The position numbers were made by a program. A stretch of DNA of 64,000 bases from a virus (lineage: Duplodnaviria > Heunggongvirae > Uroviricota > Caudoviricetes): IMG/VR virus record IMGVR_UViG_2537561946_000006; one strand, given 5' to 3'. Shown here piece by piece: positions 49,814-52,800 of the stretch (positions are counted from its first letter, which is position 1; each line of letters begins with the position of its first letter).

Positions 49814-52800
49814 TGACCACTACACTACCTTCAGATACGATGCTGCCTCTTCACGAGTGAAGATTTCTTCTTCCACCTGGAATCTCCATTTATTGAGTTG
49901 GTATTATTGCGGTAGGTCTGGATATCATTGAGCAATGAACAGGCCTCATCGAGTGTGAGGCGGTGTTATTTCATGGTTAGTCCTTGCGTAGCTCGCTGAT
50001 TCTTCTGTAAGTCTCTGGTGCTTTGTTTCCGTGTATCTTCATTTCTGACTTCAACAGAGCAACGAGGGAATCCCATTCGTTGAGGATGCCTTTGAATGCC
50101 GGAACGCGCTTTGCAACCTTGTCGAATGAATCTCTGATTTCTGGAATCTGCTCAACAAGTGCAACGCATCGTCTGAAATCGGCTGCGTCATGTGGAGCAC
50201 CGAAGCTATGACCATAGATATTCTTTTTCAGTCCACATGCGATTGAGGCAAGAGTTGCGCTACTGATGCCAACATCGCCAGTCGATTGCCATTTCAAAAC
50301 CTTCATAGCCAAATCTGACATTTCTTGTCTCCAATAAAAAAACCGCCATCAGGCGGCTTGGTGTTCTTTCAGTTCTTCAATTCGAATATTGGTTATGTCT
50401 GCATGTGCTATCTGCGCCCATATTATCCAGTGGTCATAGCAGTCGTTGATGTTCTCTGTTTCGATAACCCTGTTGAATGGCTCTCCATTCCATTCTCCTG
50501 TGACTCGGAAGTGCATTTATCATCTCCATAAAACAAAACTCGCCGTAGCGAGTTCAGATAAAAGAAATCCCCGCGAGGGCGGGGATGTTAAGTCGGTGGG
50601 GGTACAGTATGGATATCGAAAATTATTGCGCGATTTTCATTACTCCCCTGGGAAAACATTATCTGGCAAGCATACGTTGTTGATGCTGTTTCACAACACG
50701 TAAACGTAAGCTGTCATAGGCCCAATTGTAGAACATGGTATATGGTAGAAAGAAAAGGAAGAATCCTATCTCTAGTGTAAAAGCCTGTAACAGACTGACG
50801 CTCAGAATCCAGGACACCATAATGACGCCGATCGCGATAAATCCACTTTCAAAGCCCAAAGCATGGAATGCACGAACTTTTGCAGTTCGTTTTACCTGAT
50901 GAGCAGGCCAGTAGCGATCAAATAGCATGTTATAGATGATATTCCAGATCATTGCAGTTGAAGCCAACAAGATAGTCATCCCGCCCATTTCGAGTATAGT
51001 TCGCTGCATTAACCATGCTGTGGTGGGGGCCAGAATCGCAGTGGCAATTCCTTCAAAGCAAATAGCGTGAAAAATACGCTCAAGTAACGATCTGCGTTGA
51101 ATCGCATTATGTTGCATAACTTACCTTTCTTACAGTTTCGACCGCGTTATGGAGTTGTGAGATTTTTATCGATTTATGTGATATATAAAAGATAGATACC
51201 ATCGAAAAAATTGATAGATTATGCGTTACTCACTTGAAGCGTTAAGTACATTTGTTGAAGCGGTTTCCTGTGGCTCCTTTTCTGCTGCGGCACGAAGATT
51301 ACGCAAAAGTCAGTCCGCAGTCAGTACGTCAATTGCCAATCTTGAGGTCGATCTTGGTATATCATTATTCGATCGCTCTTCGCGAGAACCTGTGCTGACA
51401 GAGGAAGGAAAGAAAGTATTGAGTTACGTTCATGCGATTTTGTCAGCCAGTGAACGTCTTGAGGAGGTGGCGGTTTCGCTTGCCGGAGAGACTGAAGCTC
51501 GTCTGACGTTTGTGCTTTCCGATACCCTACACCCTGACTTATTAGAAGACATCATGGTGCAGTTTGATAGTCAGTTTCCACATACTGAGTTAGAGGTTTT
51601 AATTGGTGAGGATGTCGATGTCATCGATCTTTTGCAAAAAGAACGAGCGCAGATCGGCTTAATTGAGTCTCGGGAACACTACCCCACCGATATTGGCTCA
51701 ACCCGTTTACCGATGCAAGCGTGGATGGGCATTTATGTTTCGGCGTCACATCCACTGTCTGCAGAAAAAACAATCCAGCGGGAACAACTTCATTCATGGC
51801 GAGAACTTCGTCTTAATACTTATATCGATAACCGGGAGATGATTGCCCGTGGACCGGTTTGGTCTGCACCTAACTATTTGTTGTTACTCAGTATGGCCGT
51901 ACAGGGATTTGGCTGGTGCTCTCTGCCCTGTGCTCTGGTTGAGGAGTTTGCAACAGAAAAACCGCTGGTTCAGCTCGACGTACCTGGCTGGCCAAAGGCA
52001 ATTTCTATCGATCTGCTTTGGAATAAAAAATCGCCACCAGGCGCGGCTGGAAATTGGCTTAAGCATCATTTACAGCATATCAATGCCCCAAATAGTCGAA
52101 CTTAGATTAGTTAAAATATGGAATCCTGAAATAATCTATGTTGATATGTGGAGCCATCTTCCAGGCTCCCACCTAAATCATGTTAGCAGTTCCATTTTTT
52201 TGATGATTTCCGCATGAGCATCATCGTTATCCCCAGCGACAAATTGAATACAAAACCAGTGCTACCGCCATTGCAATTCCTACCGTTGCGAATGCTTCAG
52301 GCCAGCTCATTGATTCACCTCCTGCGGCGGTTCTGGTAGTGGCATCCAATTGATTACATCGCATTCAGGGATGCTGATATCATCACCAAGCCACCCTTGA
52401 CCTTCAGACCAGCATTGCGCGTAATACCCGTATTCTGTGTTCACTACGCACCACTGCGCGTCGTTCGGCATTCGCTCACTACAGCTTATCCAACTATCCG
52501 GAGTTACCGGAAGCGAGAACGGCAGCACATCTCCGTGAACAAGTTTTTGCTGTGACAGGTTATCCAGAACTTTCTGTACTGCTGCATCACCGAATACACC
52601 AAGCGCATCTGCCATAACTCCTACAACCTGATAAGCCTCAGCGCATACCGTGGATAAACCATCCGGAATTACCGGAGAGTTGCCGGGTTCTTTAATGTGC
52701 AAGCGAGGCTCACCATCTTTTGGCTCAGGCCACTGGCGCTCCATGTTGATCTTCAATTTATCTTCCATAGCAACGTTAATTTCAGCATCGCTGATGCCAG

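What the first reader, a model, noticed from the sequence alone, without database searches (positions are those of the whole stretch)
49977..50516. Two uncharacterised small genes separated by an intrinsic terminator next to xis
A 55-codon ORF ends inside a strong terminator hairpin and a 114-codon ORF with its own RBS starts right after it, both on the leftward early strand between the PACE/LysR cargo and xis. The int-proximal region is a frequent site for accessory or conflict genes; function is unknown.
Basis: inference. Interest (0 to 1): 0.4.

Follow-up and report, generated by a model that had tools for sequence, protein, structure and literature searches.

The report
Lambda orf55 and phage-434 ORF114 cassettes
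The two small genes are real but already catalogued phage genes of unknown function (lambda orf55 and phage 434 ORF114), each followed or preceded by transcription stop signals, and here they sit in a decayed prophage that has lost the promoter that normally drives them.

Summary
ORF55 (50349-50516, -) ends with its UGA in the loop of an 8-bp hairpin followed by a U-run. ORF114 (49977-50321, -) starts 7 nt after its own GGAG.

Neither gene is new. ORF55 is 95% identical to lambda orf55 (lambdap35). ORF114 is 96% identical to phage 434 "ORF114". GenBank M60848 annotates the same pair with the flanking terminators t-L4 and t'-I.

Both are under purifying selection (pN/pS 0.11 and 0.055) and give confident models.

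They are not a two-gene module. Each occurs without the other, and each behaves as an [RBS-ORF-terminator] cassette swapped at the hairpin/RBS junction.

ORF55 has a generic beta-beta-alpha-beta fold; the published T7 Gp2 likeness is reproducible but unspecific.

Locally, xis is split by an IS911-like element and the prophage lacks pL, N and cI, so the genes are probably silent.

Most likely role: N-dependent, non-essential early accessory genes, with the terminators shielding xis-int from read-through. The biochemical function remains unknown.

The parts
50567..50586 (-). tL4a: first of two tandem intrinsic-terminator hairpins downstream of the PACE gene and upstream of ORF55 (AUCCCCGC-CCUC-GCGGGGAU, then a U-rich tract)
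   Evidence: The terminator scan found it and the fold supports it. It corresponds to 't-L4' / 'tL4 terminator' in GenBank M60848 and X51962. At least four unrelated stem sequences occupy this position in other prophages, each forming a hairpin before the same T-run.
50536..50555 (-). tL4b: second tandem hairpin (GAACUCGC-UACG-GCGAGUUU), followed by UUGUUUUAU and running straight into the ORF55 RBS
   Evidence: It is nearly invariant across 114 loci. It matches predicted terminator t4 of lambda (PMC4195576, Table 4).
50524..50527 (-). GGAG ribosome-binding site of ORF55, 7 nt before the ATG
   Evidence: Read directly from the sequence. The same site is annotated as an RBS in phage 434 record OL657226.
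50349..50516 (-). ORF55, the homologue of lambda orf55 (lambdap35): a 55-aa acidic protein (pI 4.9) with a beta-beta-alpha-beta fold
   Evidence: 95% identical to lambda orf55 and to 434 ORF55. Hits PHROG 676 at E = 1.3e-37. pN/pS 0.108. pLDDT 86.8. pI.
50340..50359 (-). Intrinsic-terminator hairpin that overlaps the ORF55 stop codon (UGA in the loop); the U-run extends to about 50333
   Evidence: It matches predicted terminator t5 of lambda. In lambda the same hairpin directly abuts pI/xis. A 98.5%-identical segment in P22 record BK000583 is annotated as the terminator of the antisense aI RNA.
50329..50332 (-). GGAG ribosome-binding site of ORF114, 7 nt before the ATG
   Evidence: Read from the sequence. 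The string TTAT(T)GGAGACAAGAA-ATG is constant in 79 of 80 ORF114 loci, whichever terminator precedes it.
49977..50321 (-). ORF114, the homologue of phage 434 ORF114: a 114-aa all-alpha protein (7 helices) from a large unannotated phage and prophage family
   Evidence: 96% identical to 434 ORF114. Hits PHROG 1229 at E = 1.9e-51. pLDDT 93.5. pN/pS 0.055. A profile search found 2,813 50%-identity clusters at E <= 1e-3. Invariant residues are S20, P43, D45, D48, R51, C52 and W83.
49911..49961 (-). Conserved non-coding tail of the ORF114 cassette (GCCUCACACUCGAUGAGGCC...CCAGACCUACC); the mosaic breakpoint lies at its 3' end
   Evidence: It is present after ORF114 in nearly all 80 loci and is followed by at least four different downstream modules. 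It folds weakly (z = -1.2) and has no U-run, so it is not a terminator.
49825..49876 (-). 5' fragment of the xis gene (GTG start, protein VEEEIFTREEAASYLK...), cut off by the IS insertion
   Evidence: Uninterrupted copies in L031, L036 and L069 join window 49825 to 48575 with a 3-bp overlap. The remainder hits PHROG 2907 excisionase and HTH_17.
48576..49824 (+). IS3-family (IS911-like) insertion sequence with a 3-bp target duplication, disrupting xis
   Evidence: orfA and orfB are seen. RefSeq annotates an IS3-family transposase at this position and calls a related copy 'IS911 family'.
48277..48575 (-). 3' part of the interrupted xis gene
47240..48400 (-). Tyrosine integrase gene
50659..51117 (-). 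PACE (chlorhexidine-efflux family) transporter cargo gene; on the same strand, its transcript would run into tL4a and tL4b
   Evidence: Pfam BTP hit at E = 2.8e-44. The only promoter-like site on the - strand in 49700-51300 is at 51245-51218, upstream of this gene.

Best explanation
The finding covers the last two gene cassettes of the lambdoid 'exo-xis' accessory region, the xis-proximal end of the leftward early (pL) operon.

Identity. ORF55 is lambda orf55 and ORF114 is phage 434/HK022 ORF114. Each cassette is a GGAG site, a 7-nt spacer, an ORF and then non-coding sequence, and each lies directly after an intrinsic-terminator hairpin with a U-run. Cassettes are gained and lost by recombination at the shared 'hairpin-TTTTAT(T)GGAGA' junction. 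This explains three arrangements:
- lambda has ORF55 alone;
- many prophages have ORF114 alone, directly behind tL4b;
- 434, HK022 and this window have both.

How it works in an intact phage (inferred from lambda biology). Neither ORF has its own promoter. They are transcribed only by N-modified RNA polymerase coming from pL, which reads through tL4a, tL4b and the ORF55-stop hairpin. That makes both ORFs delayed-early genes.

Polymerase that is not antiterminated stops at these three hairpins. An example would be polymerase coming from a lysogen-expressed cargo gene such as the PACE transporter here. The hairpins would therefore keep xis and int silent in the lysogen.

The proteins. Both are small, non-essential accessory proteins.
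- ORF55 is an acidic beta-beta-alpha-beta protein. It lies in the lambda ea22-orf55 segment that has been linked to blocking host replication initiation.
- ORF114 is an all-alpha protein with a strictly conserved polar motif: G-x-S-S ... P-x-D-x-x-D-F-x-R-C ... W. Its phylogenetic spread points to a target or ligand common to very different hosts.

In this window. The prophage has lost pL, N, cI and its replication genes, and xis is split by an IS element. The two ORFs are intact but most probably transcriptionally silent passengers.
For: Shown here:
- Identity to lambda, 434 and HK022 at protein and DNA level, including the flanking hairpins.
- The terminators are well formed and enriched.
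- tL4a keeps a hairpin through at least four unrelated stem sequences.
- Cassette behaviour: the sequence upstream of ORF114 is either the ORF55 terminator or tL4b, joined at the same GGAGACAAGAA-ATG. Downstream, a conserved tail is followed by at least four different xis modules.
- Independent occurrence: 30 of 80 ORF114 loci have ORF55 directly upstream. Of 80 ORF55 loci, 10 have ORF114 directly downstream and 2 more have it elsewhere in the locus.
- ORF55 DNA is present in 2,777 of 5,426 complete E. coli genomes, but both genes together in only 260.
- No promoter-like site lies between the PACE gene and ORF55 or ORF114.
- Both ORFs are under purifying selection and give confident folds.
- ORF114-family genes sit in early accessory gene arrays of lambdoid, P22-like, Mu-like, N15-like and virulent phages. 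In 7 independent element groups they lie directly upstream of an integrase.
- The remnant status of this prophage and the IS in xis.

From the literature:
- orf55 belongs to the exo-xis region, which is non-essential and transcribed from pL (PMC3824215; PMC4195576).
- The segment ea22, ea8.5, orf55 plus orf73 is implicated in inhibiting host replication initiation (PMC9239242 citing Sergueev et al. 2002).
Against: - No transcript or termination data were available. Read-through by N-modified polymerase and the insulator role of the hairpins are inferred from lambda biology, not measured.
- The biochemical activity of both proteins is unknown.
- The 'bin' phenotype was mapped to a multi-gene segment, not to orf55 alone.
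- orf55 was not tested in the lambda CRISPRi essentiality screen, because it lacks a suitable PAM site (PMC10695390).
- The pN/pS values come from loci chosen by protein similarity, which biases pN downward.
- The simple promoter scan can miss weak or non-sigma-70 promoters, so low-level expression in this remnant cannot be excluded.
Confidence: 0.72

Rival explanations
1. The two ORFs form a dedicated two-gene conflict module next to int, such as a toxin-antitoxin, abortive-infection or superinfection-exclusion pair, with the terminator setting their expression ratio.
For: They are adjacent and on the same strand in a region known for accessory genes. A terminator between two genes could in principle tune their stoichiometry. 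The pair recurs in 434, HK022, the mEp phages and 260 E. coli genomes.
Against: - Each gene is common without the other: 50 of 80 ORF114 loci lack ORF55, and 68 of 80 ORF55 loci carry no ORF114.
- Lambda has ORF55 alone, and P22-like Emek has ORF114 alone.
- Distant ORF114 relatives never bring an ORF55-like neighbour.
- Neither protein hits a PADLOC model.
- The junctions show independent cassette exchange.
Confidence: 0.04
2. ORF55 is a T7 Gp2-like inhibitor that binds the beta-prime jaw and sigma-70 region 1.1 of host RNA polymerase, as modelled for lambda Orf55.
Against: - Sequence identity is 11-16%.
- Only one of the two Gp2 arginines critical for inhibition is conserved, according to the paper itself.
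- There is no experimental binding data.
Confidence: 0.1
3. ORF114 is an anti-defence or DNA-modification-associated factor. It could be an enzyme or a binder whose conserved S-S/D-D/R-C pocket acts on a nucleotide, nucleic acid or conserved host protein.
For: - Seven residues are invariant across 69 members sharing about 30% identity: S20, P43, D45, D48, R51, C52 and W83.
- The family occurs in many phyla and in both temperate and virulent phages.
- Independent elements place it next to DUF5131, N4/N6 and C5 DNA methyltransferases, an SNF2 helicase, SSB and RadC.
- Domain fusions exist with a CCA-adding/HD enzyme and with the Ea22 N-terminus, and tandem duplications are seen.
- The fold has no PDB counterpart.
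Against: - No single neighbour is obligate. The neighbourhoods are simply typical phage early regions.
- The invariant residues could be structural, for example a buried salt bridge, helix caps or core tryptophans.
- Net charge is not conserved (pI 4.6-10.1).
- Each fusion is a single case or a rare one.
Confidence: 0.22
4. ORF55 acts mainly as a leader-type ORF. A ribosome terminating at the UGA in the hairpin loop would mask the 5' arm, so ORF55 translation would tune read-through into ORF114 or xis.
For: The stop codon sits in the terminator loop in lambda, 434, HK022 and the window. This geometry is conserved. There are weak sub-threshold resemblances to the Phe and Trp leader models.
Against: - The whole 55-aa protein is under purifying selection and folds confidently, which is not expected for a mere leader.
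- The Rfam scores of 14-18 bits are far below the gathering thresholds and are driven by the hairpin.
- In the phage context N antitermination already overrides these terminators.
- This could at most be an added layer, not the main function.
Confidence: 0.08

Closest known systems
Bacteriophage lambda orf55 (lambdap35, NP_597778) with predicted terminators t4 and t5
   Same: The protein is 95% identical (52 of 55 residues). It has the same GGAG-7 nt-ATG start and the same tandem hairpin upstream. The same hairpin overlaps the stop codon, and the strand and position at the xis end of the exo-xis region are the same.
   Different: In lambda the stop-codon hairpin runs directly into pI/xis and ea8.5 lies upstream. 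Here ORF114 is inserted after the hairpin, a PACE/LysR cargo replaces ea8.5, and the xis is of a different (HTH_17) type.
Phage 434 ORF55-ORF114 region (GenBank M60848: int, xis, t'-I, ORF114, ORF55, t-L4) and the HK022 equivalent (X51962, tL4)
   Same: The two genes are in the same order and spacing, at 95% and 96% protein identity and 94% DNA identity over 83% of the query. The tL4 hairpins are the same.
   Different: 434 and HK022 have a second hairpin (t'-I), the pI promoter and a lambda-type xis after the conserved ORF114 tail. The window switches at ...CCAGACCTACC to a different xis module with no t'-I, and that xis is broken by an IS.
T7 Gp2 / phi29 p56 / Gram-positive RNAP epsilon (small beta-beta-alpha-beta proteins proposed as Orf55 analogues in PMC8614690)
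   Different: There is no detectable sequence relationship. Dozens of unrelated proteins with the same generic fold score higher, and no functional evidence exists.
Lambdoid 'morons' and mosaic gene cassettes bounded by terminators
   Same: A discrete ORF unit with a terminator at its boundary, present or absent between otherwise collinear phages, with junctions exactly at gene borders.
   Different: A classical moron carries its own promoter and is expressed from the repressed prophage. No promoter-like site precedes ORF55 or ORF114.

Membership tests
Lambda Orf55 family (PHROG 676) | Full-length sequence similarity to lambda orf55 | tested here: met
   52 of 55 residues are identical to lambda and to 434. 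PHROG 676 hit at E = 1.3e-37 over residues 1-55.
Lambda Orf55 family (PHROG 676) | Position at the xis-proximal end of the exo-xis region, between the tL4 hairpins and a hairpin overlapping its stop codon | tested here: met
   DNA alignment with lambda, 434 and HK022 and the record annotations.
Lambda Orf55 family (PHROG 676) | Predicted three-strand, one-helix alpha/beta fold (PMC8614690) | tested here: met
   The AF2 model has E2-9, E12-19, H23-37 and E41-49, with pLDDT 86.8.
Phage 434 ORF114 family (PHROG 1229) | Full-length sequence similarity to 434 ORF114 | tested here: met
   110 of 114 residues identical. PHROG 1229 hit at E = 1.9e-51.
Phage 434 ORF114 family (PHROG 1229) | Family signature W11, G18-x-S20-S21, P43-x-D45-x-x-D48-F-x-R51-C52, P60-E61, W83-D84 | tested here: met
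   All are present in the window protein. S20, P43, D45, D48, R51, C52 and W83 are invariant in the 69-member alignment A6, and the rest are nearly invariant or majority residues. A DNA pattern built from the motif recovered 112 true members among 120 hits.
Intrinsic (Rho-independent) terminator | G+C-rich hairpin immediately followed by a U-run on the transcribed strand | tested here: met
   Three sites: 50586-50567, 50555-50536 and 50359-50340.
Intrinsic (Rho-independent) terminator | Hairpin maintained in evolution | tested here: met
   tL4a keeps a hairpin through at least four unrelated stem sequences. tL4b and the ORF55-stop hairpin are nearly invariant.
Intrinsic (Rho-independent) terminator | Measured termination, and read-through by N-modified polymerase | not testable with these tools
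   Only GenBank annotations (t-L4, t'-I) and in-silico predictions (PMC4195576) are available.
T7 Gp2-like RNAP inhibitors | Specific structural similarity to Gp2 | tested here: inconclusive
T7 Gp2-like RNAP inhibitors | Binding to the RNAP beta-prime jaw and inhibition of sigma-70 transcription | not testable with these tools
   Only a docked model exists (PMC8614690).
Two-gene defence or toxin-antitoxin module | Obligate co-occurrence of the two genes | tested here: not met
   50 of 80 ORF114 loci lack ORF55, and 68 of 80 ORF55 loci carry no ORF114.
Two-gene defence or toxin-antitoxin module | Similarity to known defence-system components | tested here: not met
   No PADLOC hits at E <= 1.
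Moron (autonomously expressed prophage cargo) | Own promoter upstream of the ORF | tested here: not met
   No sigma-70-like site on the - strand between 50659 and 50321. The only one is at 51245-51218, upstream of the PACE gene. The scan is crude.

The most novel reading that the evidence does not exclude
ORF114 would be the E. coli representative of a very large, unnamed family of phage and mobile-element early proteins. The family has at least 2,800 clusters at 50% identity and spans Proteobacteria, Bacteroidota, Actinomycetota, Chloroflexota, Acidobacteriota, Myxococcota and at least one archaeal MAG. Its predicted fold has no solved counterpart, and it carries an invariant Ser/Asp-Asp/Arg-Cys site. 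On this reading the site performs a still-undescribed conserved activity, for example a new anti-defence or nucleic-acid/nucleotide-directed function used during host takeover.
Probability: 0.22. Interest if true: 0.6.

Novelty: already known. Interest (0 to 1): 0.25.

Why it matters
As a feature of this window it is ordinary. It is a textbook lambdoid mosaic joint carrying two long-catalogued ORFs, in a dead prophage.

Two points have wider value.

First, the anatomy shows cleanly how small accessory ORFs move as RBS-ORF units between terminator hairpins. It also suggests why three terminators are stacked in front of xis-int: to shield excision genes from transcription coming out of lysogen-expressed cargo.

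Second, ORF114 stands out as a well-folded, strongly constrained and extremely widespread phage protein with no Pfam, NCBIfam or PDB entry and no experimental data. It is present in classic model phages (434, HK022, the mEp phages), where knock-outs and pull-downs are easy. That makes it a cheap target for discovering a function.

Tried and rejected
- Pfam, NCBIfam and PADLOC scans of both proteins found nothing. PHROGs gave only families of unknown function.
- A Pfam scan of 69 diverse ORF114 relatives, and of 20 longer fusion proteins, gave only noise. The one exception was a CCA-adding/HD fusion.
- A profile search of the ORF114 family against all PDB sequences gave a best E-value of 0.33.
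- Literature searches by accession number, PHROG id, 'ORF114', 'tL4' and the mEp phage names found no functional study. The lambda ribosome-profiling paper (PMC3718152) is not held.
- I could not establish which hairpin is lambda 'tL3' from the papers available, so I use the GenBank names t-L4 and t'-I and the t4/t5 labels of PMC4195576.
- The 'lipoprotein' annotation of ORF114 in one Stx-phage record is rejected. There is no signal-peptide-like N-terminus, and Cys29 is not conserved in the family.
- A helix-turn-helix or DNA-binding reading of the G-x-S-S-x-T helix is rejected. There are no HTH hits in 69 members, and family pI ranges from 4.6 to 10.1.
- An sRNA reading of the ORF55 3' end is rejected. 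STnc420 and isrK score 17-18 bits against gathering thresholds of 50-70 bits, and the matches are driven by the terminator hairpin.
- Guilt-by-association across 112 genomic loci found typical early-region neighbours (integrase, DUF5131, methyltransferases, SNF2, SSB, RadC, Mu GemA/DUF3164) but no obligate partner.
- The search for related loci with the diverse alignments failed because no conserved stretch was long enough. A degenerate DNA pattern was used instead.
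Full report

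Yes. On the - strand there is a 55-codon ORF at 50349-50516 and a 114-codon ORF at 49977-50321.

The ORF55 stop codon (UGA, 50351-50349) is the first three bases of the 4-nt loop of the hairpin AAGCCGCC-UGAU-GGCGGUUU (50359-50340). A run of U follows, then A-UU-GGAG, a 7-nt spacer and the ORF114 ATG. The hairpin centroid energy is -13 kcal/mol, with z = -2.4 against dinucleotide shuffles.

In total the 1.6-kb region has 9 terminator-like sites against 1.4 +/- 1.2 expected.

**2. What are the two ORFs?**

Neither is new.

ORF55 is 95% identical to lambda lambdap35, known as 'orf55', and to phage 434 ORF55. ORF114 is 96% identical to the ORF that GenBank M60848 (phage 434) calls 'ORF114'.

M60848 lists, in order: int, xis, terminator t'-I, ORF114, ORF55 and terminator t-L4. 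HK022 record X51962 marks the same 'tL4 terminator'. The alignment of window, 434, lambda and HK022 shows that t-L4 corresponds to the tandem hairpins upstream of ORF55.

The hairpin over the ORF55 stop codon is conserved in all four phages. In lambda it runs straight into the pI/xis sequence. In 434, HK022 and the window the ORF114 unit is inserted after it. The same two lambda hairpins were predicted as terminators t4 and t5 in PMC4195576.

Both ORFs match only PHROGs of unknown function, 676 and 1229. Neither hits Pfam, NCBIfam or PADLOC.

**3. Are they genes?**

Across IMG/VR alleles, pN/pS is 0.108 for ORF55 (36 alleles; polymorphic sites by codon position 7/1/16). It is 0.055 for ORF114 (55 alleles; 9/5/34). 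The caveat is that these loci were picked by protein similarity, which lowers pN.

AlphaFold2 gives a beta-beta-alpha-beta model for ORF55 (pLDDT 86.8). It gives a seven-helix all-alpha model for ORF114 (pLDDT 93.5, pTM 0.87). Both ORFs have a GGAG site 7 nt before the ATG. I conclude that both encode proteins.

**4. Are they a pair?**

No.
- Of the 80 best ORF114 loci in IMG/VR, 30 have a complete ORF55 directly upstream and 50 have none.
- Of the 80 best ORF55 loci, 10 have ORF114 directly downstream and 2 more have it elsewhere in the locus. The other 68 have no ORF114, and 44 of those have the lambda arrangement with xis immediately after.
- In complete E. coli genomes, ORF55 DNA occurs in 2,777 of 5,426, but a match covering both genes occurs in only 260.
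- P22-like Salmonella phages carry an ORF114 homologue (62% identity) directly upstream of xis with no ORF55.

**5. Anatomy of the joints**

The sequence upstream of ORF114 takes one of two forms:
- ...GCCGCCTGATGGCGGTTTTTT(T)ATTGGAGACAAGAA-ATG, which is the ORF55 terminator;
- ...GAACTCGCTACGGCG(A/G)GTTTTGTTTTATGGAGACAAGAA-ATG, which is tL4b.

In the second form ORF114 takes exactly the place that ORF55 occupies in lambda (...GTTTTGTTTTATGGAGATGATAA-ATG). The shared 'hairpin - T-run - AT(T)GGAGA' is therefore the exchange point.

Downstream of ORF114 lies a conserved 50-nt tail (window 49961-49911). At least four alternative modules follow it. Two begin with a t'-I-type hairpin (GCCGCATCAATGCGGCTTTT): lambda-type pI/xis, and a different downstream module. 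A third carries another hairpin and gene. The fourth is the window's GTG-start HTH_17 xis, with no hairpin.

tL4a appears as at least four unrelated stem sequences (CCUCGC/GCGGGG, CCUCG/CGAGG, ACCCGC/GCGGGU, CCGC/GCGG). Each sits in front of the same T-run, so the structure rather than the sequence is conserved. tL4b is nearly invariant.

The ORF55-stop hairpin is also shared, at 98.5% identity, with P22. There record BK000583 annotates it as the terminator of the antisense aI RNA, on the other strand.

**6. Local context changes the reading**

- xis is broken. Intact copies (L031, L036, L069) join window 49825 to 48575 with a 3-bp overlap. That defines a 1,249-bp IS3-family (IS911-like) insertion at 48576-49824.
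- The prophage is a remnant. In the 99%-identical region of E. coli 377323_2f, gam is followed directly by a 5'-truncated replication gene P. After that come an inverse autotransporter, ybcN-ninE-ybcO, another IS3 element and an integrase fragment. There is no kil, cIII, N, pL, cI, cro, cII or O.
- The only sigma-70-like site on the - strand in 49700-51300 is at 51245-51218, upstream of the PACE transporter gene.

In this genome, therefore, no pL and no N can drive or antiterminate transcription of ORF55 and ORF114. Transcription of the PACE gene would meet tL4a and tL4b first. I infer that the two ORFs are intact but silent passengers here.

**7. How it most likely works in an intact phage**

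Part of this is shown and part is inferred.

Shown: the ORFs have no promoter of their own, and each is bracketed by well-formed, evolutionarily maintained intrinsic terminators. They lie at the distal end of the region homologous to the lambda pL operon.

From established lambda biology: exo-xis genes are transcribed from pL (PMC4195576), and N-modified polymerase reads through intrinsic terminators.

Inferred: ORF55 and ORF114 are delayed-early, N-dependent genes. The stack of three terminators in front of pI/xis-int blocks unmodified polymerase, for example polymerase coming from cargo expressed in the lysogen. This would prevent inappropriate Xis and Int synthesis.

The stop codon in the hairpin loop could add translation-dependent tuning. 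I rate that as a minor possibility.

**8. Protein function**

The protein is acidic (pI 4.9). In lambda, the ea22-ea8.5-orf55 segment plus orf73 has been linked to blocking host replication initiation (PMC9239242 citing Sergueev et al. 2002). No experiment isolates orf55. It was also not tested in the CRISPRi essentiality map.

*ORF114.* An exhaustive profile search finds 2,813 50%-identity clusters at E <= 1e-3, of which 629 are at E <= 1e-10. None has a name or a Pfam domain.

In 69 members sharing about 30% identity with the query, S20, P43, D45, D48, R51, C52 and W83 are invariant. W11, G18, S21, L55 and P60 are nearly so.

The family HMM confirmed 112 of these. They come from:
- Acidobacteriota, Chloroflexota, Myxococcota, Actinomycetota and Bacteroidota;
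- Alpha-, Beta- and Gammaproteobacteria;
- Caldithrix;
- one Methanomethylicus MAG.

Phage records with homologues include Vibrio, Salmonella, Yersinia PY54, Haemophilus SuMu, Klebsiella, Arthrobacter and Clavibacter phages.

The contexts are arrays of small early genes. Neighbours that recur on the same strand in independent elements are:
- a tyrosine integrase about 300 nt downstream (7 groups);
- DUF5131 (7 groups);
- N4/N6 methyltransferase (5 groups);
- SNF2 helicase (4 groups);
- Mu DUF3164 and GemA (3 groups);
- C5 methyltransferase (3 groups);
- SSB and RadC in a Dehalococcoidia group.

None of these is obligate. Fusions exist with an Ea22-like N-terminus and with a CCA-adding/HD enzyme, tandem duplications occur, and several unrelated short extensions are seen. 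Net charge is not conserved.

I therefore cannot assign a biochemical function. The conserved polar site and the very broad host range favour a target or ligand common to very different hosts. The early-region, DNA-modification-rich neighbourhoods make an anti-defence or DNA-metabolism accessory role the best guess, at about 0.2.

**9. Comparison with the known, and novelty**

The feature is a member of known, named but functionally uncharacterised ORF families (lambda orf55 and 434 ORF114), flanked by terminators already annotated or predicted.
- It fails the tests for a two-gene defence or toxin-antitoxin module, on both co-occurrence and PADLOC.
- It fails the test for a classical moron, because there is no promoter.
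- Membership of the Gp2-like inhibitors is inconclusive on fold and untestable on function.

**10. Verdict**

- Novelty: already known.
- Interest is low at 0.25.
- One lead is worth recording. ORF114 is a large, strongly constrained phage family with no structure and no annotation, and it is carried by tractable model phages.

Noticed in passing
window 48576-49824 (+), with xis fragments at 49825-49876 and 48277-48575 (-): A 1.25-kb IS3-family (IS911-like) element with a 3-bp target duplication splits the HTH_17-type excisionase gene after about 17 codons. Intact copies of this xis exist in IMG/VR loci L031, L036 and L069.
   Followed up: yes
window ~55082-64000 (gam ends ~56560; truncated P ~56720-57290): The prophage is a remnant. 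gam is followed directly by a 5'-truncated replication gene P, then an inverse autotransporter, an alpha/beta hydrolase, ybcN-ninE-ybcO and another IS3 element. The whole immunity, N and replication-origin region is missing.
   Followed up: partly
window ~43000-47180: Left of the integrase the sequence switches to a different element carrying AraC-family, nleH, nleF and ykgJ-like genes. No tRNA gene is found in 40000-64000, although the closest genomes have this prophage at tRNA-Thr next to proBA. None of the 5,426 complete E. coli genomes in the collection spans this junction.
   Followed up: partly
window 49911-49961 (-): A 50-nt non-coding tail after ORF114 (GCCTCACACTCGATGAGGCC...CCAGACCTACC) is conserved in nearly all 80 ORF114 loci, although at least four different modules follow it. 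It forms only a weak hairpin and has no U-run. Its role is unknown; it may be a recombination linker or an RNA processing site.
   Followed up: partly
window 50659-52105: A PACE-family (chlorhexidine efflux) transporter gene and a divergent LysR regulator occupy the cargo slot just upstream of tL4. Lambda has ea8.5 there, and phage 434 has two membrane-protein genes on the opposite strand.
   Followed up: partly
window 50330-50395; locus L015 (P22 BK000583) 2501-2565: The ORF55 3' end plus its hairpin is 98.5% identical to a P22 segment annotated as the terminator of the antisense aI RNA, on the opposite strand. The hairpin may therefore work in both directions and is shared as a linker between lambda-like and P22-like phages.
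   Followed up: partly
proteins P0253, P0152, P0282, P0303, P0150 (relatives of ORF114): ORF114-like domains occur fused to a CCA-adding (PolyA_pol head, RNA-binding, HD) enzyme, as tandem duplications, and behind Ea22-like N-termini. Many other relatives carry unrelated 50-100-aa N-terminal or ~150-aa C-terminal extensions.
   Followed up: partly
loci L198-L282 (Dehalococcoidia MAG chromosomes): About 21 of the 112 confirmed genomic ORF114-family loci belong to one related element in Dehalococcoidia. There the gene sits between an SSB gene and a RadC-like JAB gene, near a DNA methyltransferase. This is reminiscent of the leading or early regions of mobile elements.
   Followed up: partly
window 50332-50399 (-): There are sub-threshold Rfam matches to the Salmonella sRNAs STnc420 (18 bits; gathering threshold 70) and isrK (17 bits; threshold 50), and to the Phe and Trp leader models. 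All are driven by the terminator hairpin, and I regard them as chance.
   Followed up: yes
window 52307-53089 (-): A 260-aa ORF combines a dATP/dGTP pyrophosphohydrolase domain (PF04447) with a C-terminal DUF551. Several database proteins are chimeras of this domain with ORF114 sequence (P0015, P0053, P0063), which points to frequent recombination or frameshift fusions in this region.
   Followed up: no
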